From positions 1 through 64,000 of the IMG/VR virus record IMGVR_UViG_3300032242_000488: a stretch of 64,000 bases of DNA. One strand, given 5' to 3'. The DNA is from a virus. Position numbers and translations under genes: made by a program. A model generated the notes under the pieces. It worked only from the letters and a program-made list of their open reading frames with translations, was not told the DNA's origin and did not search any database. Positions 3,962 to 16,471 of the stretch are shown here, piece by piece (position 1 is the stretch's first letter; each line of letters starts with the position of its first letter).

Positions 3962-4158
3962 AGTACAACGTGTGAAGATACCAGTAACGAGGACTGGGCC
4001 CTGCACGTAAAACATGGGGCGAACGGGCGGCCTACCGGATGGATTATCCTTGTGTGGATAAAAAAATGGTAGCGTATTAAAGCATTCTCAGGCCTTCGGG
4101 CAAGTGGGTTCATCCATGAAGAGTGCTTTAATACACACATTCTAAAGAGTGTGTTAAT

Positions 4159-4245
4159 GGAGGTTGTTCCCTATTGCCGGCTGTAACCCGGTAGGCATAA
4201 TAAGTAGGGTGGCGCCAAGTGGTTCGATTCCATCAACCTCCACCA
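4159..4245 (+). tRNA. non-canonical tRNA-Tyr(GTA)-like RNA
   Basis: 8-bp acceptor, 4-bp T stem, TTCGATT loop, CTGTAAC anticodon loop, CCA; no D arm. Confidence 0.6.
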
Positions 4246-4328: not shown

Positions 4329-4386
4329 TAGGATACTAACAGCAAATCTTAATCAACTTTCAAATGGTGAAAAAGAATGTATCCTG
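4329..4386 (+). ncRNA. ACAGCAA-scaffold RNA copy 1 (Glu-UUC loop)
   Basis: TAGGATAC/GTATCCTG stem, ACAGCAA, internal ATCAA-CTTTCAA-ATGGT. Confidence 0.75.
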
Positions 4387-4395
4387 TTTAATTAT

Positions 4396-4470
4396 ACTCC
4401 GGTCGTCTAGTGGCTAGGACGCCAGCCTTTCAAGTTGGAGAAGCGGGATCGAAACCCGTTCGGAGTACCA
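4396..4470 (+). tRNA. tRNA-Glu(TTC)
   Basis: Cloverleaf, loop CTTTCAA, variant T-loop ATCGAAA, CCA. Confidence 0.9.
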
Positions 4471-4474
4471 ATAT

Positions 4475-4549
4475 GCCGTTGTAGCTCTCTGGGAGGGTAA
4501 CTGATTGTCTATCAGATTTAGGCGAGTTCGATTCTCGTCAGCGGCGCCA
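4475..4549 (+). tRNA. tRNA-Asp(GTC), divergent
   Basis: Cloverleaf, loop TTGTCTA (pyrimidine at 37), CCA. Confidence 0.8.
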
Positions 4550-4555
4550 ATCTAT

Positions 4556-4634
4556 TCCGTGAAATCCAAGCATGGTGCAAGGACCTGACTGTTAATCAGT
4601 GATTAGGTGAGTTCGATCCTCACACACGGAGCCA
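4556..4634 (+). tRNA. tRNA-Asn(GTT), divergent
   Basis: Loop CTGTTAA, T arm, GCCA end. Confidence 0.8.
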
Positions 4635-4643
4635 ATACAATTT

Positions 4644-4718
4644 GGGGGCAGTAGCGGGCTACGGTTCTCCCTTGCAAGGAGGATGTCTAGAAGGGTTCAA
4701 CTCCCTCGGTCTCCACCA
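4644..4718 (+). tRNA. tRNA-Ala(TGC), divergent with reduced D loop
   Basis: G3:U70 pair, loop CTTGCAA, CCA. Confidence 0.75.
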
Positions 4719-4724
4719 AATTAT

Positions 4725-4800
4725 CTCGCATTCGGTTAGCGGCTATGCCACCTGGTTTGGGGCCAGGAGTTCGAAGGTTCGAGTCCTTCATGCGAGACCA
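4725..4800 (+). tRNA. tRNA-Pro(TGG)
   Basis: Cloverleaf, loop TTTGGGG, CCA. Confidence 0.85.
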
Positions 4801-4806
4801 AGTTAA

Positions 4807-4880
4807 GCCCTATTAGTTAAATGGTAGAACACCTGTTTTGTAATCAGGGGATGGCAGTTCGATTCTGTCATGGGGCACCA
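4807..4880 (+). tRNA. tRNA-Thr(TGT)
   Basis: Cloverleaf, loop TTTGTAA, CCA. Confidence 0.88.
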
Positions 4881-4883
4881 GTT

Positions 4884-4944
4884 TAGGATAGTAACAGCAA
4901 ATTAAAAAATCTTTTCTTGAAAAAAAGCCAAAAATGCTATCCTG
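4884..4944 (+). ncRNA. ACAGCAA-scaffold RNA copy 2 (Ser-UGA loop)
   Basis: TAGGATAGTA/TGCTATCCTG stem, ACAGCAA, internal CTTTT-CTTGAAA-AAAAG. Confidence 0.78.
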
Positions 4945-4973
4945 TTTTATTTTAATGTTCAAAGGAGAACGAC

Positions 4974-4994
4974 ATGAAACGTGCTAAACGTTAG
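4974..4994 (+). CDS. minigene MKRAKR
   Basis: AAAGGAG RBS at 4961-4967, ATG AAA CGT GCT AAA CGT TAG, followed by a strong hairpin. Confidence 0.4.
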   Translation: MKRAKR

Positions 4995-5056
4995 TGTCAT
5001 CCTAGACCCCCGTATGGTCCTGGATGGCACGTAAAAGAAAATCAATTACGAATCAT

Positions 5057-5132
5057 CCACAGCTGGCGTTAACGGTAGCGTACTCGGCTCTTAACCGATG
5101 AGGTGTCAGTTCAAATCTGACGCTGTGGACCA
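5057..5132 (+). tRNA. tRNA-Lys(CTT)
   Basis: Cloverleaf, loop CTCTTAA, CCA. Confidence 0.9.
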
Positions 5133-5135
5133 TAT

Positions 5136-5210
5136 GGGGGTATAACTTAACGGCTAAAGTAGTAGGCTTTTAACCTATTAATCAGAGTTCGATTCTCTGT
5201 GCCCCTACCA
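5136..5210 (+). tRNA. tRNA-Lys(TTT)
   Basis: Cloverleaf, loop CTTTTAA, CCA. Confidence 0.9.
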
Positions 5211-5296
5211 TATGAAAACATATTCGATACGGACATAGTCTGTGTGAGGCAAGATCACCTTCCTTTGACGAGAACGATCCGAGTGTGTTTCCATAT

Positions 5297-5371
5297 GGTA
5301 ATGTAGGACAATGGTAGTCTTCCTCCTTCATACGGAGAGTGTTACTGGTTCAAATCCAGTCATTACCACCA
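5297..5371 (+). tRNA. tRNA-Met/Ile2(CAT)
   Basis: Cloverleaf, loop TTCATAC, CCA; Met versus lysidine-Ile identity not resolved. Confidence 0.8.
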
Positions 5372-5376
5372 ATCAT

Positions 5377-5450
5377 GTATCCCTAGTGTAATGGCAGCAT
5401 TACAGTCTCCAAAACTGTCGGTCGGGGTTCGAGTCCCTGGGGGTACGCCA
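5377..5450 (+). tRNA. tRNA-Trp(CCA)
   Basis: Cloverleaf, loop CTCCAAA, GCCA. Confidence 0.9.
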
Positions 5451-5454
5451 TTTT

Positions 5455-5518
5455 AAGGATGTTAACAGCAAAAATTTATACATTGAACTTTTAATTCAAA
5501 CCGTAAAAATACATCCTG
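5455..5518 (+). ncRNA. ACAGCAA-scaffold RNA copy 3 (Lys-UUU loop)
   Basis: AGGATGT/ACATCCT stem, ACAGCAA, internal TTGAA-CTTTTAA-TTCAA. Confidence 0.78.
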
Positions 5519-5527
5519 TTTTTTTGT

Positions 5528-6977: not shown

Positions 6978-8474
6978 TTATAAACTTAACTTTTTTTGTA
7001 TGTAGTTAGGGATATATTTTTCTGGAAAGTTCCTTTGGTATTGATGTGTCCCATTAAGTTTTAATTTTTCTTGGGTAGACAATGGCATACCATTATTATC
7101 ACATATTATGCCTATAAGTCCATTTCCATTTCCCTGTCCACCAAGTTTGTGCAGATTGTATTTTCCAACTTTTAGTAATAGAGTACAATCATTAGCAATA
7201 GCATCGGCTTCGTATATATTCATGTTATCATTTTCCCAAATGACTCCATCTGATGTGCCGACATTACATTTTTTTAACGGATCGGTGTTAGTGATATCAT
7301 CCATAATTCGATAACCGTATTTTGTAAAGTTTTTAGACAGTTCTGAGCCTCGAGGATCATCTGGATCTTGTATATAAAGAGCGTTCATCATCCATGAATG
7401 GTGGCTCCAATTAGCTTTGATCCACTTTGAAGTTTCTGCTAATGATTCTTTTGTCTCATAAGGTAATCCTGCAATAAGAGATATTTGAGGACGATATTCA
7501 AAACCTGCATGTTTTATAAAATAATTAGATACATCTATTAGGCCTTCTTTCATTTTAGAAACATCCATGCCCTTGCCAATGGCTTTGGCAGACTCTTGAT
7601 TGAAGGTTTCGATGCCATGGAAGTGTGCTAGGACTCTCATCCTTAATAATTCTTCTCTATCCTTAGGACGACTTATTAATAGATCGGCTCTAATATATGC
7701 CCAAAAATAAGGATCGTAGGGCAATGTTTCTACCATGTCTGCAAACTTTGTAACTTTTTCTGTGCTATCATTAAACGTGTCGTCAACGATAGCATAATCC
7801 TTCATTCCAAAGTGTTCATAATTGTATAGTAGCTGTTCTTTAATGCTATCTGCATTAGAGGTATAATCGCCTCTTACACCAAGAATAGGATAGTTGCAAA
7901 ATTTACAAGCAAATTTACAACCTCTGCTCATTTCAACTGTGCCAAATTCGTTCGGTAAAATAAAATCTCTATTTTGAAATTTTACAATAGGGCTTCGAAA
8001 TGGGTACGACTCATGAGCGTGTAGAGCATTGATAATTTTAGTATGACTGTTAACTACAGAAAGATCAAACTTAGGCCTGGTGCCGTTACTGAATAGATAT
8101 TTTAATAATACATCTAACGCATTTTCGCCGTAGCCTGCTATATGATAATCAACAAGTGGGTTATTACTAATTGGAGCTTGCCCGCCAGTTATCGTAACAA
8201 TGTGAGGCCATTTAATTTTAACATACGCAAGGATGACATTCATTGTATCTATAGCAGATGATCTATTAAATAAAAGTGAGATCCCGATAAATTTAGTGTT
8301 TGATGTTATTCTTGAATCAATAAGACTATAGAGTTGTTCGTTCGTAAAATACACAGTAAAATCGACTACTTCTACATCCCAAGATTGTTCTCTTAAATGT
8401 GATGCAATTCTGTGGGAACCTGCGCTTCTTTCTTTAAGACCGGCACAAACTGAAAAGATGATTGCATGATTCAT
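6978..8474 (-). CDS. radical SAM protein, B12-binding-like N-terminus
   Basis: CKFACKFC motif, DDTFN, GIETFN, LIAGLPYET; start moved to MNHAII after TATAAATA at 8479-8486. Confidence 0.85.
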   Translation of the reverse strand: MNHAIIFSVCAGLKERSAGSHRIASHLREQSWDVEVVDFTVYFTNEQLYSLIDSRITSNTKFIGISLLFNRSSAIDTMNVILAYVKIKWPHIVTITGGQAPISNNPLVDYHIAGYGENALDVLLKYLFSNGTRPKFDLSVVNSHTKIINALHAHESYPFRSPIVKFQNRDFILPNEFGTVEMSRGCKFACKFCNYPILGVRGDYTSNADSIKEQLLYNYEHFGMKDYAIVDDTFNDSTEKVTKFADMVETLPYDPYFWAYIRADLLISRPKDREELLRMRVLAHFHGIETFNQESAKAIGKGMDVSKMKEGLIDVSNYFIKHAGFEYRPQISLIAGLPYETKESLAETSKWIKANWSHHSWMMNALYIQDPDDPRGSELSKNFTKYGYRIMDDITNTDPLKKCNVGTSDGVIWENDNMNIYEADAIANDCTLLLKVGKYNLHKLGGQGNGNGLIGIICDNNGMPLSTQEKLKLNGTHQYQRNFPEKYIPNYIQKKLSL

Positions 8475-8541
8475 ACTATATTTATAGTTAAGAGTTGACC
8501 CTAAAAAATTTAAGTACACTAAGATAATAGAAATAAATATA

Positions 8542-9495
8542 ATGTTACCAATAAGGCCTAACATGAAAAAGAAACTCTGCTTAGTATATCAACTGTTTAC
8601 AAAGTGCAATATAGGTTGCAAGTACTGTTATAATTATTTTGATCAGGATGTACTTCCCTTCAATTATTATACATCCAAAGTTGGTAAACTTTTAGAATTA
8701 TACCATGATGAAACTTGTTTTGTTTTGAATGGCGGTGAGCCCTTGTTGCTTAAAGGATTTCAACATCTAGTAAATCAAGCGACTGAAAAAGCAAAAACAT
8801 ATACCTATACTAATGGTACTCTAAGTACATTGCACTATAAGAGATTTATTGATAGTCTTGAGCACAAAGACAAATTTTATATGACAATCAGTTTACACTG
8901 TATGGAAGTGCTAAGAGATAATAAATTACCTGAGAAGTACTTTAAAAATATTGAAGTTTTTGCTAAGAATATTCCCAACTTAAAAATCAACCTAGTAGTT
9001 GATGAAGAGTTTCAAGGTGAATACTTACAGGTAATTAGACAAACTATGAGAGAAATTAAACAAAAAACTTCTCTCAAATATGTTAATATTCTAATCGCTG
9101 ATCATATGTATGAAGATGAATTTAAACTATTGCGTTTGTTAAATCAAGATTTTATTGACTTTGTTGAAGAAATTGATAGCAATTTTACTTATAAAAATTG
9201 CATGTGGGACAATACTAGACAGTCATTAACAGAAATGATCAAAGACATAAAAGAAAATATCGTGTTAAAGTTAGCCGGAAAGGATTTCAAAATTCCATAT
9301 GAATATGAATTTGGACAAATATTTTTCTTAGAAAGTCCCGAAGGAATGATTATTCAGGAATTTTTAGGTGACGGACGTCAAGAACATAAAATACCGTTTG
9401 ATCAATTTGACGCATTTGTTGAAGATATCAAACCAAAAGTACAAAGCAAGCCTCTTAGAAAAATTACAACATTATCGTCTGTTGGAATAATCTAA
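8542..9495 (+). CDS. radical SAM protein
   Basis: CNIGCKYC, GGEPLL, TNG motifs; true start may be 8563. Confidence 0.85.
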   Translation: MLPIRPNMKKKLCLVYQLFTKCNIGCKYCYNYFDQDVLPFNYYTSKVGKLLELYHDETCFVLNGGEPLLLKGFQHLVNQATEKAKTYTYTNGTLSTLHYKRFIDSLEHKDKFYMTISLHCMEVLRDNKLPEKYFKNIEVFAKNIPNLKINLVVDEEFQGEYLQVIRQTMREIKQKTSLKYVNILIADHMYEDEFKLLRLLNQDFIDFVEEIDSNFTYKNCMWDNTRQSLTEMIKDIKENIVLKLAGKDFKIPYEYEFGQIFFLESPEGMIIQEFLGDGRQEHKIPFDQFDAFVEDIKPKVQSKPLRKITTLSSVGII

Positions 9496-9920: not shown

Positions 9921-10010
9921 GGAAATGTGGCAGAGTCCGGTTTATTGCAACAGTCTTGAAAACTGTCGATCAGAAATGGTCCGTGAGTTCGAATCTCACC
10001 GTTTCCGCCA
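9921..10010 (+). tRNA. tRNA-Ser(TGA)
   Basis: Class II cloverleaf, loop CTTGAAA, GCCA. Confidence 0.93.
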
Positions 10011-11705: not shown

Positions 11706-11849
11706 GTTTTGTTTATGTGTGTACGGTTACCCATATGTGAGTAGCGAGTCGCCCAAGACACTTGTTACTGTACCTGATGCCCGTAGCAGACTTACGTCGA
11801 GTAAGTTCAGCAAGTAGCTTGGACACTACAAGCGATAAACAAATTCATT

Positions 11850-11945: not shown

Positions 11946-12058
11946 TAGGATAGATGACAGCAAACCCTAGCGGCTAATACCCGCATCCAAAGGACCGGGG
12001 GAACCCAGTCGAGCATGTTCGCTAATCATGTAGAAAAAATCGGCAAAAGCCTATCCTG
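11946..12058 (+). ncRNA. ACAGCAA-scaffold RNA copy 4
   Basis: TAGGATAG/CTATCCTG stem, ACAGCAA, three internal hairpins. Confidence 0.72.
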
Positions 12059-12502
12059 TTAAAACCCCGTCTACACTTCTACGTTAAGGAAGTGCGTAAT
12101 TACAGTGACGATAACTGTACGGTGCATTGGATCTACCGCAAGGCCCATTTAAGGCGACTTGAAAAATCACAAAGGCGGGGACGTTTCCCGTCTAGATGGA
12201 AAAAGAACGTGGACAGAGTAACCGCTCAGTTTAGGGCTCATGTGGTGTGAGTAGCTAGACACTTTATTAAAGCAAACTAGAATCTGTAAAAAGATCAGGT
12301 TTGGTATCCCAGAAGCTCTTTGACATAGTCATAACTTTTAATACACCTTAGTTTGTTTTAATAAAGTAATTTTATACGTGCTCTTTGAGTAGCTACAGTG
12401 GAACACCGAAATACCGGTCAATGTCGACCATGTACCGGGACCGGCCATGAAGAGAGGGGCTACCGCGAATTCAAGCGTCACAGAGAGCACCTATAAAGTT
12501 AT

Positions 12503-12578
12503 CGCGGGGAGGGTCCGGTCACCAGCGTGGTCTCATAAGCCATTGCCATCCTTGGTTCAAATCCAAGCCCCGCAACCA
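12503..12578 (+). tRNA. initiator-like tRNA-fMet(CAT), divergent
   Basis: CGCGGGG acceptor with C1:A72 mismatch, loop CTCATAA, CCA. Confidence 0.8.
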
Positions 12579-12831
12579 TTTTTATCAGTAAGGAACTTAG
12601 GGTATCGGGAGTCCGTAATGGGAAGCATAAAAGGTCGGAAGCCTTTAATGTTTGATGATTATAAATCATACTCCAGCCGGGTGGTAGATCAGGACATACA
12701 GTCCGGGCGATCTTCAAAAGCAGTTGATACTCCATGTTTGCTAGACCAGTAGAGCGCGACTGTATGCCGCGGGTAGCCAAGTCTGACTTTCGTCGACCAA
12801 AACTCTCCAAGTTCCTTTCTAATAAAAATAT

Positions 12832-13449: not shown

Positions 13450-13550
13450 GTGGTCGTAAGCAAATAGGCAAAGCTCCAATCCAGAAATGGTGAGGGACGG
13501 GACTAGGCTATTAGCCGTCTTTGTAGGTTCAAGCCCTACCGACCACACCA
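13450..13550 (+). tRNA. tRNA-like RNA (Leu-like, degenerate anticodon arm)
   Basis: Perfect acceptor GTGGTCG/CGACCAC, Leu-type D loop, T arm, CCA; 101 nt. Confidence 0.5.
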
Positions 13551-13819: not shown

Positions 13820-13848
13820 TAGACACATAACAGTAAAGACGTTATAAT
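13820..13848 (+). promoter_or_regulatory. sigma70 promoter for ncRNA-DUF2828 operon
   Basis: TAGACA-N17-TATAAT. Confidence 0.7.
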
Positions 13849-13880: not shown

Positions 13881-14046
13881 TAGGATCGGTACAGCAATTC
13901 ATACATACTATGGAATGTTAGACACTGTGGTAGTTGGTGGAGCAGAGTGCGTAAAAACACCGAGCGTTGAAGTCAACTATTGAAACAAGACTAACGAGCA
14001 CAGAGTGATGGCCTGTGTAAAATAAAAGCAGTCAACAACGATCCTG
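13881..14046 (+). ncRNA. ACAGCAA-scaffold RNA copy 5
   Basis: TAGGATCG/CGATCCTG stem, ACAGCAA, multi-hairpin insert. Confidence 0.75.
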
Positions 14047-14053
14047 TTAGTCA

Positions 14054-14284
14054 TAGGATGACTACAGCAATTAAAATACTCTGAACTAACTGCTATAGAA
14101 GGTGGTCGCAGGACAGGCAGAAATGCTTTCTAGAAATAGACACCGAAGGAATAGATAGACTGGCAAAGCACCAGGTATGATTTACATACAGAAAAACATG
14201 TAATAGACAACATGAGTTGTTGTTAGGGTCTGGGTGCCATGATTGACCAGACCAGAAAATAAACAAATTGGCACGATCATCCTG
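14054..14284 (+). ncRNA. ACAGCAA-scaffold RNA copy 6
   Basis: TAGGATGA/TCATCCTG stem, ACAGCAA, insert with GAAA-capped hairpins and GGTCTGG/CCAGACC stem. Confidence 0.75.
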
Positions 14285-14294
14285 TTTAAAGTTT

Positions 14295-14351
14295 TAGAAT
14301 GTTAACAGCAACTTTAATTTTTCACGCATATCGAAAAGAAAATACATTCTG
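14295..14351 (+). ncRNA. ACAGCAA-scaffold RNA copy 7
   Basis: TAGAATGT/ACATTCTG stem (compensatory G-C to A-T change), ACAGCAA, internal TTTTC/GAAAA hairpin. Confidence 0.72.
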
Positions 14352-14365
14352 TAAAGGTAATTAAA

Positions 14366-15778
14366 ATGAACGCATTTGTAAACGCAGTAGCGAACCAAGA
14401 AGCCCGTACCGCAAACGGTATGAAGGCTCGTAAGTCAACAGCCAAGAAGACTGTTGATCTTTTCTATAACATCGGTGCAAGCCGTGGCAAGAACATTGTT
14501 CCTGCTTTCACAGCGGCTTATGTCGAAAACCAAGACGTAGCACTACGCATCGCACAATGGGCACGTGATGTCCGTGGTGGTGCAGGTGAACGTCAACTTT
14601 TCCGTGACATTCTTGTTCACTTGGAAAAGACTGACCCAGACGCCGCTTTAGCTTTGCTTCGCAAGGTTCCAGAAGTTGGTCGTTGGGATGACATCTTTGT
14701 CTTCACCAACCCTGACCTAAAGTCAGCCGCTTACACTATGCTTGGCGATGCCTTGCGTGAACGTAACGGCCTGGCTGCAAAGTGGACTCCTCGTAAGGGT
14801 CAAATTGCCGCTGAAGTTCGTGCCTTCTTTGGCATGACTCCAAAGCAATACCGTAAGAGCCTTGTGGCTCTTACAAAGGTTGTTGAAACCCAAATGTGTG
14901 CAGGAGATTGGGATAACATCAACTTCAGTCACGTTCCTTCTGTAGCGGCTCGCCAATACAAGAAGGCATTCAACCGTCACACACCTGCATTTGCAGAGTA
15001 TGTTGCCAAGTTGGTAAGTGGTGATAAGACTGTTAAGGTTAACGCCAACGCAATCTTCCCACATGATGTGTTGAAGGGAGTGATCGGTAGCTACCGTGCA
15101 AGTTTGGACAAGACAGAAACTGACCATGTGATCGCACAATGGGACAGCTTGCCAAACTACGTAGGCGATGCTAGCATCATGCCAATCGTAGACGTTAGCG
15201 GTTCTATGTCTTGCCCAGCAGGAAAGAACACTGGCGTAACTTGCATGGACGTTTCAGTCAGCTTGGGCTTGTACCTAGCAGACAAGAACAAGGGCGTGTT
15301 CAAGGACACATTCTTGACTTTCTCTAGCAAGCCAGAACTTGTTACTCTAAAGGGTAACATTGTTCAAAAGGTTGCCCAAATGTCTAGTAGCAACTGGGAT
15401 ATGAGCACTAACTTGCATGCCGCTATGGACAAGATCCTAAGCGTTGCAGTTAAGGGTTCAGTACCAGCAAGCGACATGCCAGCCATGTTGCTGATCTTGT
15501 CAGACATGCAGTTTGACCAATGTGCTCGTTACGACGACACAGCAATGCAGATGATCGAACGCAAGTTCGAAACAGCTGGATATGCTGTGCCACAAATTGT
15601 TTTCTGGAACCTAAACAGTTCAGACAACGTGCCTGTTAAGGCAGACAAGAGTGGTGCGGCACTGGTAAGTGGATTCAGTCCATCAATCATGACTAGCTTG
15701 CTAGCCGCTGATTTGGATCAGTTCACTCCAGAAGGTATCATGTTGAAGACTGTAATGAGTGATCGTTACGCTCTTTGA
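14366..15778 (+). CDS. DUF2828-family TROVE/Ro60-like protein with C-terminal vWA domain
   Basis: RDVRGGAGER, GRWDD, LAAKWTPR, VPSVA helical region; vWA MIDAS DVSGS, SDMQFD, VFWNL, VSGFS. Confidence 0.8.
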   Translation: MNAFVNAVANQEARTANGMKARKSTAKKTVDLFYNIGASRGKNIVPAFTAAYVENQDVALRIAQWARDVRGGAGERQLFRDILVHLEKTDPDAALALLRKVPEVGRWDDIFVFTNPDLKSAAYTMLGDALRERNGLAAKWTPRKGQIAAEVRAFFGMTPKQYRKSLVALTKVVETQMCAGDWDNINFSHVPSVAARQYKKAFNRHTPAFAEYVAKLVSGDKTVKVNANAIFPHDVLKGVIGSYRASLDKTETDHVIAQWDSLPNYVGDASIMPIVDVSGSMSCPAGKNTGVTCMDVSVSLGLYLADKNKGVFKDTFLTFSSKPELVTLKGNIVQKVAQMSSSNWDMSTNLHAAMDKILSVAVKGSVPASDMPAMLLILSDMQFDQCARYDDTAMQMIERKFETAGYAVPQIVFWNLNSSDNVPVKADKSGAALVSGFSPSIMTSLLAADLDQFTPEGIMLKTVMSDRYAL

Positions 15779-15791
15779 AAACCTAAGTTTT

Positions 15792-15818
15792 AATAGGACC
15801 TTCGGGTCCTATTTTTTT
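15792..15818 (+). terminator. intrinsic terminator
   Basis: AATAGGACC-TTCG-GGTCCTATT followed by T run. Confidence 0.9.
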
Positions 15819-15832
15819 AATTAAATATAGGC

Positions 15833-16471
15833 ATGCAAACAATTACTATTGCCGGAACAGACATTAATATCATAGAAGGACCAATTGGCATAACGATGTC
15901 AGGTGGTGCTGATAGCTCATTGCTATGTTATATACTAATGAAATATGCTACTGGACCAATACATATCATCAATTTTAGTGATCGGTATCGCCAATGGGTG
16001 TCTCCCGGAAATGTAGCAAATGTCGTTGGGTTTTGTGTTGACAACACTGGATTTGATAGTAGTAAGGTTTTTATGAATACATACTTCATGCCTCAGAAAA
16101 CTATTTCTGTAATGGCTGAACGAATTAAAAGTTATACAGAACAAAATATCGTTTCAATAGTATATGGTGCAACAACATCAACTCCACCTGAAGAAGATTT
16201 AAAACTTTTTAAAGTTAAGACTATTGATTATATATCGACTTCTAGAGATCCTAATGTTAGTAAAGAACTAGTAAGCCCAATAGGATATTATAGACCATTT
16301 TTTAATATAGATAAGAAACAAATCAAAAAGATGTACGATGAGCTTGGGCTAACTGAAACACTATTTCCAATAACTCGATCTTGTGATAACCCCAAAGTAA
16401 AAACAGGTCACTGTAATGGAAAATGTTGGTGGTGCGAAGAACGAAAATGGGCATTTGGCACTTATGAATAG
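15833..16471 (+). CDS. QueC-like PP-loop ATPase
   Basis: SGGADS PP-loop; C-terminal TRSC...HCNGKCWWC Zn cluster. Confidence 0.65.
   Translation: MQTITIAGTDINIIEGPIGITMSGGADSSLLCYILMKYATGPIHIINFSDRYRQWVSPGNVANVVGFCVDNTGFDSSKVFMNTYFMPQKTISVMAERIKSYTEQNIVSIVYGATTSTPPEEDLKLFKVKTIDYISTSRDPNVSKELVSPIGYYRPFFNIDKKQIKKMYDELGLTETLFPITRSCDNPKVKTGHCNGKCWWCEERKWAFGTYE

What the first reader, a model, noticed from the sequence alone, without database searches (positions are those of the whole stretch)
4352..5499. Scaffold RNAs display isolated tRNA anticodon stem-loops (Glu-UUC, Ser-UGA, Lys-UUU)
Seen: copy 2 carries CTTTT-CTTGAAA-AAAAG (4911-4927) and copy 3 carries TTGAA-CTTTTAA-TTCAA (5483-5499), both perfect 5-bp stems with 7-nt loops. 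Copy 1 carries ATCAA-CTTTCAA-ATGGT (4352-4368, 4 of 5 pairs). Each loop is identical to the anticodon loop of a real tRNA in this window (Ser 9955-9961, Lys 5167-5173, Glu 4427-4433). Weaker cases are CAT in copy 7 and GCT/AAT loops in copy 4. Known: PrrC and PARIS AriB cut tRNA-Lys, and RloC cuts wobble-U tRNAs including Glu. Inference: anticodon decoys that titrate or bait defence nucleases or modification enzymes, possibly held by the Ro60-like protein.
Basis: partly seen in the sequence, partly recalled or inferred. Interest (0 to 1): 0.9.

Follow-up and report, generated by a model that had tools for sequence, protein, structure and literature searches.

The report
Anticodon-arm mimics on phage Y-like RNAs
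Two, possibly three, ~60-base RNA genes in this jumbo phage's tRNA array carry a copy of a tRNA anticodon arm on a conserved "handle" that travels with a Ro60-shaped protein gene; the family seems undescribed, and the RNAs may bait or block enzymes that read or cut tRNA anticodons.

Summary
All three hairpins sit at the stated coordinates, and their loops equal the loops of the window's tRNA-Glu, tRNA-Ser and tRNA-Lys.

Copies 2 and 3 are far beyond chance. Of 74 distinct short homologues in related phages, 48 have a 4-5 bp stem closing a 7-nt C-U-NNN-A-A loop, against 0.28 expected. The stems covary. Positions 32, 33 and 36-38 are fixed, while 34-35 vary and avoid A.

Copy 1 (Glu) is doubtful, because a different hairpin is the conserved one in its family. 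The "weaker cases" in copy 7 fail, and those in copy 4 show no support.

These RNAs are the smallest members of the "7-bp stem + ACAGCAA ... CUGU" handle family. Other members carry whole, circularly permuted tRNAs. The handle tracked a DUF2828 gene in 6 of 6 cultured phages that have one and in none of 4 that lack it. That protein models as Ro60. The only Rfam look-alike is the Dictyostelium Class I RNA, below threshold.

The decoy function is untested. I found no published description. This scan has already reported the same family and the same anticodon-arm mimics in many other genomes.

The parts
4330..4387 (+). Handle RNA copy 1. It has a 7-bp closing stem AGGATAC/GTATCCT, the spacer TA, ACAGCAA, a 33-nt cargo and GT. 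It lies 5 nt after tRNA-Ile and 8 nt before tRNA-Glu.
   Evidence: RF01414 full-length sub-threshold hit of 22.8 bits
4352..4368 (+). It has 4 pairs and an A.A mismatch closing the loop. It competes with the conserved hairpin TTTC-AAATGGT-GAAA.
4885..4945 (+). Handle RNA copy 2, with stem AGGATAG/CTATCCT and a 36-nt cargo. It lies 4 nt after tRNA-Thr.
   Evidence: RF01414 hit of 20.7 bits
4911..4927 (+). Anticodon-arm mimic in copy 2: a 5-bp stem CTTTT/AAAAG and the loop C-U-UGA-A-A. Homologues carry UGA, CGA or GUA on the same stem.
5456..5519 (+). Handle RNA copy 3, with stem AGGATGT/ACATCCT and a 39-nt cargo. It lies 5 nt after tRNA-Trp and 8 nt before tRNA-Gln.
5483..5499 (+). Anticodon-arm mimic in copy 3: a 5-bp stem TTGAA/TTCAA and the loop C-U-UUU-A-A. 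A lower helix, 5475-5479 with 5503-5507, is supported by compensatory changes in its family.
11947..12059 (+). Handle RNA copy 4, with an 87-nt structured cargo that is not tRNA-like. It follows tRNA-Ile-UAU.
13820..13848 (+). Sigma-70-like promoter match (11 of 12) in front of copies 5-7 and the DUF2828 gene.
13882..14047 (+). Handle RNA copy 5, with a 141-nt cargo.
14055..14285 (+). Handle RNA copy 6, with a 206-nt cargo.
14296..14352 (+). Handle RNA copy 7, with stem AGAATGT/ACATTCT. Its 32-nt cargo has a variable-loop hairpin of about 9 nt that is not anticodon-like. It ends 14 nt before the gene.
   Evidence: RF01414 hit of 17.3 bits
14366..15778 (+). Gene for a 470-aa DUF2828 + DUF7788 protein. 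It is predicted to have a Ro60-like ring plus a vWA domain, with the MIDAS residues D276, S278 and S280 invariant.
15792..15813 (+). Terminator-like hairpin followed by a T run, after the gene.

Best explanation
Copies 2 and 3, and less surely copy 1, are the minimal members of a phage small-RNA family. The family is built from a constant handle and a variable cargo.

The handle is a covarying 7-bp terminal stem, then 2-3 nt, then the unpaired ACAGCAA, and a 3' end reading CUGU. In these copies the cargo is a mimic of a tRNA anticodon arm: a 5-bp stem and a 7-nt loop C32-U33-N34-N35-(U/A)36-A37-A38.

The RNAs sit in tRNA slots of the array. They are presumably co-transcribed with the tRNAs and released by the tRNA-processing enzymes; this step is inferred. 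The handle is most likely the docking site of the Ro60-shaped DUF2828 protein encoded at 14366-15778. That is inferred from co-occurrence and from the analogy with Ro60 and Y RNA. The RNAs would then be Y-RNA analogues.

Proposed mechanism (inferred, not shown): the particle presents a free anticodon arm to proteins that read anticodon loops. The most likely targets are host tRNA-cutting defence nucleases, which the RNA would bait, titrate or sense. The displayed 34-35 dinucleotide would set the specificity.

My odds:
- the hairpins are selected anticodon-arm mimics: 0.9
- the handle partners the DUF2828 protein: 0.75
- the target is an anticodon nuclease (decoy or sensor): about 0.35
For: The mimicry is selected.
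- 48 of 74 distinct homologues have CU-NNN-AA loops, against 0.28 expected.
- The stems are 5 or 4 bp and never longer.
- The stems covary.
- In the copy-3 family, positions 32, 33, 36, 37 and 38 are almost invariant, while 34 and 35 are among the most variable columns.
- Positions 34-35 carry A in 1 of 50 cells although the flanks are 54% A, and they are G/C-enriched.
- Thirteen different triplets occur.
- One syntenic slot carries different triplets in close relatives. The slot Ile-GAU > element > Trp-CCA holds UUU, GCU or UCU. The slot Phe > element > Lys-CUU holds UUU or UGU.

The hairpin is an anticodon arm by homology. In the same family, cargos of 89-107 nt run in the order anticodon arm, variable region, T arm, capped acceptor stem, D arm. 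After un-permuting, ARAGORN of 29 of them tRNAs, reading the hairpin as the anticodon (Arg-UCU, Ile-GAU, Trp-CCA, Cys-GCA and others).

The elements occupy tRNA slots, 4-6 nt after one tRNA and 7-10 nt before the next.

The structure is at RNA level. All copies lie on the tRNA strand, and G-U pairs are kept in the helices.

The protein link is consistent.
- Copies 5-7 lie between a promoter match and the gene.
- The AF2 model has pLDDT 89.9, and its 13 best PDB matches are all Ro60.
- A covariance model of the short elements finds full-length hits in all six DUF2828-bearing cultured phages tested (RSP15, BUCT194, Serratia BF, Ochrobactrum OC, Astolliot and KVP40). It finds none in T4, CcrColossus or phage G, and only a partial weak hit in T5.
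- CU-NNN-AA hairpins recur in BUCT194, Serratia BF and Astolliot.

Known background: Ro60 binds Y RNAs, and bacterial and phage YrlA mimics tRNA (PMC4201824; PMC12135203).
Against: - No expression, processing, binding, cleavage or modification data exist.
- Copies 1-3 lie 9-10 kb from the protein gene.
- No RNA ligase or RtcB gene was found in the record, which is only 46% complete. No anticodon nuclease of the unknown host is known.
- Variation is confined to positions 34-35, with 36-38 fixed within each family. That would also fit a partner which reads only the generic loop frame.
- An unmodified decoy may be a poor ligand for nucleases that need modified wobble bases, and it would have to compete with abundant tRNA.
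- RSP15 has C at position 33 in two such loops. That departs from the tRNA rule.
- The homologues are related, so the counts are not independent events.
Confidence: 0.5

Rival explanations
1. The RNAs are substrate mimics or adaptors for housekeeping anticodon readers rather than for defence nucleases. The loop frame is read by A37- or wobble-modifying enzymes (U36-A37-A38 marks t6A substrates and A36-A37-A38 marks i6A substrates), by synthetase anticodon-binding domains, or by the ribosome. The RNAs would titrate, recruit or report on these proteins.
For: Each family keeps positions 36-38 fixed, as U-A-A in the copy-3 family and A-A-A in the copy-2 family. Only positions 34-35 vary. Those frames are the known determinants of the two main A37 hypermodification classes; this last point rests on my own knowledge. 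YrlA is itself modified by tRNA enzymes (PMC4201824).
Against: Positions 34-35 are not neutral. A is nearly absent and G/C are enriched. Triplets are swapped in the same slot between close relatives. Both point to selection on triplet identity. It is also unclear what a phage would gain by sponging modification enzymes.
Confidence: 0.2
2. The RNAs are repair or quality-control adaptors. The Ro60-like particle uses pieces of tRNA (anticodon arms or whole permuted tRNAs) to recognise, pair with or escort damaged or nicked tRNAs. It would hand them to ligases or exonucleases, as Ro60, Y RNA and PNPase do for misfolded RNA.
For: The protein has a Ro60-like fold. In Serratia phage BF the DUF2828 gene lies next to an annotated RNA ligase gene, and a tRNA nucleotidyltransferase gene lies about 3 kb away. 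Bacterial rsr-yrlBA is part of an RNA-repair operon that responds to damaged tRNA (PMC7790460).
Against: No ligase or RtcB gene was found in this partial record. A free anticodon arm has no obvious way to pair with a broken tRNA. Nothing has been tested.
Confidence: 0.15
3. The anticodon likeness is inherited and has no role in recognition. On this view the short forms are reduced descendants of permuted-tRNA cargos, and the hairpin only caps and stabilises the handle RNA.
For: Full permuted tRNAs occur on the same handle. Copy-7-type elements work with a plain, variable hairpin.
Against: Loop size and positions 32, 33 and 36-38 are kept across very distant phages: a freshwater jumbo clade, a Vibrio schitovirus, a Serratia jumbo phage and a Pseudomonas phage. 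Meanwhile the stems covary. A mere cap would not hold a 7-nt CU..AA loop.
Confidence: 0.1
4. The hairpins are chance structures in AT-rich spacers, or they are terminators or processing hairpins.
For: The spacers are AT-rich, and each hairpin is weak on its own (-0.7 to -3 kcal/mol).
Against: The motif occurs 48 times against 0.28 expected. The stems covary. The motif is conserved in unrelated phage families. No T run follows the hairpins, and they lie inside a larger conserved stem.
Confidence: 0.01

Closest known systems
YrlA-type Y RNAs with Ro60/Rsr of bacteria and phages (Rfam RF02553; Chen et al. 2014, PMC4201824; Thermus phage phiLo Ro60-Yrl, PMC12135203)
   Same: Both are small RNAs whose 5' and 3' ends close a stem that serves as a protein platform. 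Both are encoded beside a ring-plus-vWA protein gene and carry a module that mimics tRNA. In relatives the cargo has T and D arms and a capped acceptor stem, as in YrlA. The protein here models as Ro60.
   Different: The platform is ACAGCAA next to a 7-bp stem, not the GNCGAAN0-1G helix. The protein is DUF2828/DUF7788 and shows no detectable sequence match to solved Ro60. RF02553 does not hit the window. The module displayed here is the anticodon arm, which is the part of tRNA that YrlA lacks. Many copies are scattered through a tRNA array.
Class I RNAs of dictyostelid social amoebae (Rfam RF01414; Kjellin et al. 2021, PMC7919456)
   Same: Both are about 60 nt long, with a conserved 5' G paired to the C of a conserved 3' CUGU. 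Both have a covarying terminal stem of 6-7 bp, followed at once by an unpaired motif ending ACAGCAA (Dictyostelium CCUUACAGCAA), and then a variable AU-rich body. RF01414 is the only non-tRNA Rfam family that aligns to these elements end to end, and it does so repeatedly. The BUCT194 element contains CUUACAGCAAU exactly.
   Different: Every score is below the gathering cut-off of 41.5 bits; the best is 31.2. The phage RNAs lie in tRNA arrays, not behind a DUSE promoter. The known Class I binder is an RRM protein, Rnp1A. I could not test whether dictyostelids have a DUF2828 protein or whether Class I RNAs display anticodon-like loops. Homology and convergence remain unresolved.
mRNA and viral anticodon-arm mimics, such as the E. 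coli thrS operator (recalled from my own knowledge)
   Same: An isolated stem-loop copies a tRNA anticodon arm so that it is read by a protein that normally reads tRNA.
   Different: Those mimics are cis-regulatory elements for a single synthetase. Here the mimics are free-standing, multi-copy small RNAs with interchangeable triplets on a protein-binding handle.

Membership tests
tRNA anticodon stem-loop (canonical form) | A 5-bp stem closing a 7-nt loop | tested here: met
   Copies 2 and 3 are perfect. Homologues have 5 bp in 35 cases and 4 bp in 13, and never more. Copy 1 has only 4 pairs, with an A.A mismatch at the loop.
tRNA anticodon stem-loop (canonical form) | U33, a purine at 37, and C/U32 with A38 | tested here: met
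   C-U-NNN-A-A occurs in all three window copies and in 48 of 74 homologues. RSP15 is an exception, with C33.
tRNA anticodon stem-loop (canonical form) | Sits as the anticodon arm within a tRNA body | tested here: met
   This is not so in the window's short copies. In related elements on the same handle the hairpin is the anticodon arm of a permuted tRNA that ARAGORN recognises.
Y RNA / YrlA (RF02553) | Covariance-model score at or above the gathering cut-off (69 bits) | tested here: not met
   There is no hit in the window. BUCT194 gives sub-threshold hits of 25.6 and 23.5 bits.
Y RNA / YrlA (RF02553) | Ro60-binding helix with the GNCGAAN0-1G motif | tested here: not met
   The conserved motif is ACAGCAA next to the stem.
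Y RNA / YrlA (RF02553) | Encoded next to, and bound by, a Ro60 protein | tested here: inconclusive
   Copies 5-7 abut a gene whose product models as Ro60. RNA and gene co-occur in 6 of 6 carriers and in none of 4 non-carriers. Binding was not tested.
Dictyostelium Class I RNA (RF01414) | Covariance-model score at or above the gathering cut-off (41.5 bits) | tested here: not met
   Window copies score 22.8, 20.7 and 17.3 bits. The best phage element scores 31.2 bits.
Dictyostelium Class I RNA (RF01414) | A 5' G paired to the C of a 3' CUGU, a covarying stem of about 6 bp, and an 11-nt motif ending ACAGCAA right after the stem | tested here: met
   All seven window copies have these features. 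The family features are taken from PMC7919456.
Dictyostelium Class I RNA (RF01414) | DUSE promoter, dictyostelid genome, Rnp1A binding | not testable with these tools
   No eukaryotic genomes are held. The phage copies lie in tRNA arrays or behind a sigma-70-like promoter.
Ro60 / TROVE protein | HEAT-repeat ring plus vWA fold | tested here: met
   The AF2 model has pLDDT 89.9. Foldseek ranks 1-13 are all Ro60, with E 5.6e-9 to 4.9e-6 and TM 0.39-0.64.
Ro60 / TROVE protein | Sequence-level membership (a Pfam TROVE hit or a match to solved Ro60) | tested here: not met
   Pfam gives DUF2828 and DUF7788 only. phmmer against PDB finds nothing at E up to 1.
Ro60 / TROVE protein | MIDAS motif DxSxS in the vWA domain | tested here: met
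   D276, S278 and S280 are invariant in 48 homologues.

The most novel reading that the evidence does not exclude
The ACAGCAA handle RNAs of phages are true relatives of the orphan Class I RNAs of social amoebae. On this reading, Class I RNAs are Y-RNA-like partners of a Ro60-shaped (DUF2828-type) protein. The phage versions form a programmable counter-defence library. Each handle displays a tRNA part, and the anticodon-arm versions are retargeted by swapping two loop bases to neutralise or sense different tRNA-cutting immune nucleases.
Probability: 0.25. Interest if true: 0.9.

Novelty: new variant of a known kind. Interest (0 to 1): 0.8.

Why it matters
Phage tRNA arrays are now read as counter-measures to tRNA-targeting defences. 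Free anticodon arms carried on a protein-binding handle would be a second, RNA-based layer of that contest. They would also be the first Y-RNA-like particles to display the decoding end of tRNA.

The family is widespread. It occurs in freshwater jumbo phages and in cultured Vibrio, Serratia, Pseudomonas, Ralstonia and Ochrobactrum phages, including KVP40. It is absent from Rfam under any bacterial or phage name. It would give DUF2828, a large family of unknown function, an RNA partner.

The handle also offers the first outside lead to the function of Dictyostelium Class I RNAs. All of this can be tested directly in cultured phages.

Tried and rejected
- **Adjacency to the cognate tRNA.** I checked whether each mimic sits next to its cognate tRNA. 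It does only sporadically: UUC sits before tRNA-Glu in the window and in L058, and GUU sits after tRNA-Asn in L166. Most mimics do not, and the neighbours vary.
- **Match to a phage tRNA.** The displayed triplet matches a tRNA in the same locus in 18 of 22 loci with at least 25 tRNAs. Such arrays cover most anticodons, so this is not informative.
- **H-type pseudoknot.** I considered ACAG pairing with CUGU and rejected it on geometry, since no linker would cross the first stem.
- **Functional armless tRNA.** Rejected: there is no CCA or free acceptor end, and the 3' end is a conserved CUGU.
- **Rfam.** No family reaches threshold on the elements.
- **T-arm or tRNA-like features in the window's long cargos (copies 4-6).** None were found.
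- **RNA ligase and RtcB genes in the record.** None were found, but the record is only 46% complete.
- **Literature.** Searches for DUF2828, ACAGCAA, TROVE/vWA with phage tRNA arrays, and permuted tRNA with Ro60 found no description of these RNAs.
- **DUF2828 in Dictyostelium.** I could not determine whether it has one. The protein atlas listed only viral-dominated clusters.
Full report
**Setting.** The window is the first 64 kb of a 167.5-kb viral record that CheckV rates 46% complete. Its relatives are freshwater jumbo phages of 345-356 kb. ARAGORN finds 37 tRNA genes between 4.2 and 13.8 kb, all on the + strand.

**The scaffold.** Seven elements share one architecture. They lie at 4330-4387, 4885-4945, 5456-5519, 11947-12059, 13882-14047, 14055-14285 and 14296-14352.
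- Each opens with a 7-bp stem beginning AG.
- A 2-3-nt spacer follows, then the invariant ACAGCAA.
- The cargo is 32-206 nt.
- The complementary stem arm follows, then GT, so the 3' end reads CUGU.
- The stem differs between copies yet always pairs: AGGATAC/GTATCCT, AGGATAG/CTATCCT, AGGATGT/ACATCCT, AGGATCG/CGATCCT, AGGATGA/TCATCCT and AGAATGT/ACATTCT.

Copies 5-7 lie in tandem between an 11/12 sigma-70-like promoter match (13820-13848) and a 470-aa gene (14366-15778). A terminator-like hairpin follows that gene.

**The observation.** Their loops equal those of tRNA-Glu, tRNA-Ser-UGA and tRNA-Lys-UUU in the window, while the stems are unrelated to those tRNAs. This identity is weak evidence on its own, because 18 of the 37 resident tRNAs use the CU..AA frame.

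**Test on homologues.** I fetched 80 loci through the neighbouring protein and 119 loci through the handle pattern. I then extracted every element with a perfect closing stem.
- Of 74 distinct short elements of the tRNA-array type, 70 have a hairpin with a 7-nt loop.
- 48 of the 74 have a stem of at least 4 bp closing C-U-NNN-A-A. Composition-preserving shuffles give 0.28 on average and at most 2 in 200.
- The 34 distinct copy-7-type elements have none.
- The stem is 5 bp in 35 cases and 4 bp in 13, and never longer.
- On an alignment of 51 elements the hairpin stem is 90% paired. Four of its five pairs change on both sides; one pair, for example, occurs as GC 21, AU 11, UA 9 and CG 8. No shuffle of 500 and no slid register approaches the observed covariation.
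- I chose this set for having the hairpin. That inflates the percentage paired but not the variety of pair types.

**Pattern inside the loop.** In the copy-3 family (34 distinct members), positions 32, 33, 36, 37 and 38 are nearly invariant as C, U, U, A, A. Positions 34 and 35 are among the most variable columns of the whole RNA.
- On one unchanged stem (UAGA/UCUA) the loop reads UUU, UGU, UCU, AUU or CUU.
- The copy-2 family keeps C-U-N-N-A-A-A on CUUUU/AAAAG, with UGA, CGA or GUA.
- Thirteen triplets occur overall, and UUU is the commonest.
- Positions 34-35 are not drifting neutrally. A fills 1 of 50 cells while the flanking cargo is 54% A. G plus C is 46%, against 19% in the flanks (Fisher p from 1e-3 to 1e-8; the sequences are related, so these are not independent events).
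- One syntenic slot carries different triplets in close relatives. The slot Ile-GAU > element > Trp-CCA holds UUU, GCU or UCU. The slot Phe-GAA > element > Lys-CUU holds UUU or UGU.

**Copy 1.** Its family is marked by the conserved UGGUGAAA. A hairpin UUUC-(..UGGU)-GAAA can form in 6 of 6 members, including the Ralstonia and Vibrio phage copies. I treat the Glu reading as unproven.

**Why the hairpin is an anticodon arm.** In relatives, 29 cargos of 61-125 nt on the same handle contain a T arm followed by a capped helix. After rotating these cargos at that cap and trimming the linkers, ARAGORN of them tRNAs. Twelve are called robustly with one anticodon: Arg-UCU five times, Ile-GAU twice, Trp-CCA twice, and Cys-GCA, Ile-UAU and Leu-UAA once each. 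In most of these the CU-NNN-AA hairpin next to the handle is the anticodon arm. The short copies in the window are therefore the arm-only form of a family that otherwise displays whole, circularly permuted tRNAs.

**Placement.** The elements sit in tRNA slots, 4-6 nt after one tRNA and 7-10 nt before the next, and the neighbours vary. G-U pairs in the helices and the single-strand orientation argue for structure at the RNA level.

**The partner protein.**
- The gene product matches only DUF2828 and DUF7788 in Pfam.
- It has no sequence match to any solved structure.
- An AlphaFold model built from 48 homologues has pLDDT 89.9. Its 13 best PDB matches are all Ro60: Thermus phage phiLo, Xenopus, human and Deinococcus.
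- The vWA MIDAS residues D276, S278 and S280 are invariant.

**Co-occurrence of RNA and gene.** A covariance model of the short elements finds full-length matches in five distant cultured phages that carry DUF2828: Ralstonia RSP15, Vibrio BUCT194, Serratia BF, Ochrobactrum OC and Pseudomonas Astolliot (E from 1e-10 to 6e-4). I then searched five control phages that also carry tRNA genes.
- KVP40 has a full-length match, and it alone among the five has a DUF2828 gene.
- T4 has no match.
- CcrColossus and phage G have no match; published work reports Ro60 homologues and Y-RNA-like RNAs in both (PMC12135203).
- T5 has only a partial weak hit.

CU-NNN-AA arms recur in BUCT194 (GCU, UCU), Serratia BF (UUU, GUU) and Astolliot (UUU, directly before tRNA-Lys). 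RSP15 has CC-NNN-AA variants. In BUCT194 the stretch upstream of the gene also holds a tRNA whose anticodon loop is replaced by a 48-nt insert carrying ACAGCAA, plus two sub-threshold YrlA matches.

**Relation to known families.** The logic is that of Ro60 with YrlA-type Y RNAs, which mimic the T, D and acceptor parts of tRNA (PMC4201824). Three things differ: the platform motif, the protein family at sequence level, and the displayed part.

The only Rfam family that aligns end to end with the elements is Dictyostelium Class I RNA (RF01414). Window copies score 22.8, 20.7 and 17.3 bits. BUCT194 elements score 31.2 and 26.1, KVP40 scores 27.4 and RSP15 scores 21.4. All are below the 41.5-bit cut-off. 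The defining features given by Kjellin et al. match one for one: a 5' G paired to the C of a 3' CUGU, a covarying stem of about 6 bp, a motif ending ACAGCAA, a variable body and a length of about 60 nt. That paper holds Class I RNAs to be unique to dictyostelids. I cannot decide between homology and convergence. I also could not test whether dictyostelids encode a DUF2828 protein. One paper reports DUF2828 proteins with mimivirus-like matches.

**Function.** What is shown is a selected, widely conserved anticodon-arm mimic on a handle that co-occurs with a Ro60-shaped protein. What is inferred is that the protein binds the handle, and that the arm is offered to an anticodon-reading protein.
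- I favour a bait, decoy or sensor role against tRNA-cutting host defences, at about 0.35. The displayed triplet is swapped rapidly and non-neutrally, Lys-UUU dominates, and the RNAs are made together with a large replacement tRNA set.
- The fixed 36-38 frame equally suits A37-modifying enzymes or other generic readers.
- A repair-adaptor role is suggested by the annotated RNA ligase gene next to DUF2828 in Serratia BF.
- No ligase was found in this partial record, and no expression data could be obtained.

**Prior work.** I found no published description. Within this scan, the handle family and its anticodon-arm mimics have already been reported and followed up in many other genomes, with the same conclusions. 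I consulted those notes only after my own analysis was done.

Noticed in passing
window 4158-4242, 4555-4640 and 13450-13547: Three tRNA-like genes that ARAGORN missed. 4158-4242 matches the tRNA-Sec model at 27.6 bits, below threshold. 4555-4640 reads as an Asn-GUU tRNA with an odd D region. 13450-13547 matches the tRNA model at 31.3 bits, above the 29-bit cut-off.
   Followed up: no
G000:C1:160421-160436 (outside the window; locus L008): An eighth match to the handle pattern, AGAATACCTACAGCAA, lies far from the tRNA array. I did not check it for a closing stem.
   Followed up: no
L216:3090-3560 (Vibrio phage BUCT194, upstream of its DUF2828 gene): Nested tRNA-like bodies are joined to handles. 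One is a tRNA (50.1 bits) whose anticodon loop is replaced by a 48-nt insert holding a back-to-front handle. Another handle's cargo appears to be the 3' half and the 5' half of a second tRNA, separated by the first. There are also two sub-threshold YrlA matches.
   Followed up: partly
L215:6147-6275 (Ralstonia phage RSP15): A handle RNA whose cargo has a perfect T arm, an acceptor 3' strand with GCCA, and then an acceptor 5' strand and D arm. This is a YrlA-like permuted tRNA. RSP15's two arm-only elements have C rather than U at loop position 33.
   Followed up: partly
L217:6097-9305 (Serratia phage BF): The DUF2828 gene, annotated 'RNA-binding protein', lies next to an annotated RNA ligase gene. 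A tRNA nucleotidyltransferase gene lies about 3 kb downstream.
   Followed up: no
W08 (Vibrio phage KVP40) 168943-169677 and 176663-176722: The well-studied phage KVP40 carries a DUF2828 gene and, about 7 kb away, one full-length handle RNA (28.6 bits). It is a convenient model for experiments.
   Followed up: partly
window 4946-5056: Between copy 2 and tRNA-Lys-CUU lies a 111-nt spacer with a short ORF-like stretch (ATGAAACGTGCTAAACGTTAG) and a GC-rich hairpin. Its nature is unknown.
   Followed up: no
window 11707-11843 and 12061-12830: Long non-coding, apparently structured stretches lie between tRNAs. They have no Rfam match beyond noise.
   Followed up: no
window 15833-16471, 6978-9495, 1467-2609: The neighbouring genes include a QueC-like PP-loop protein directly after the DUF2828 gene, two radical-SAM proteins (one with a B12-binding domain), a sulfotransferase-like protein and a cytochrome P450-like protein.
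   Followed up: no
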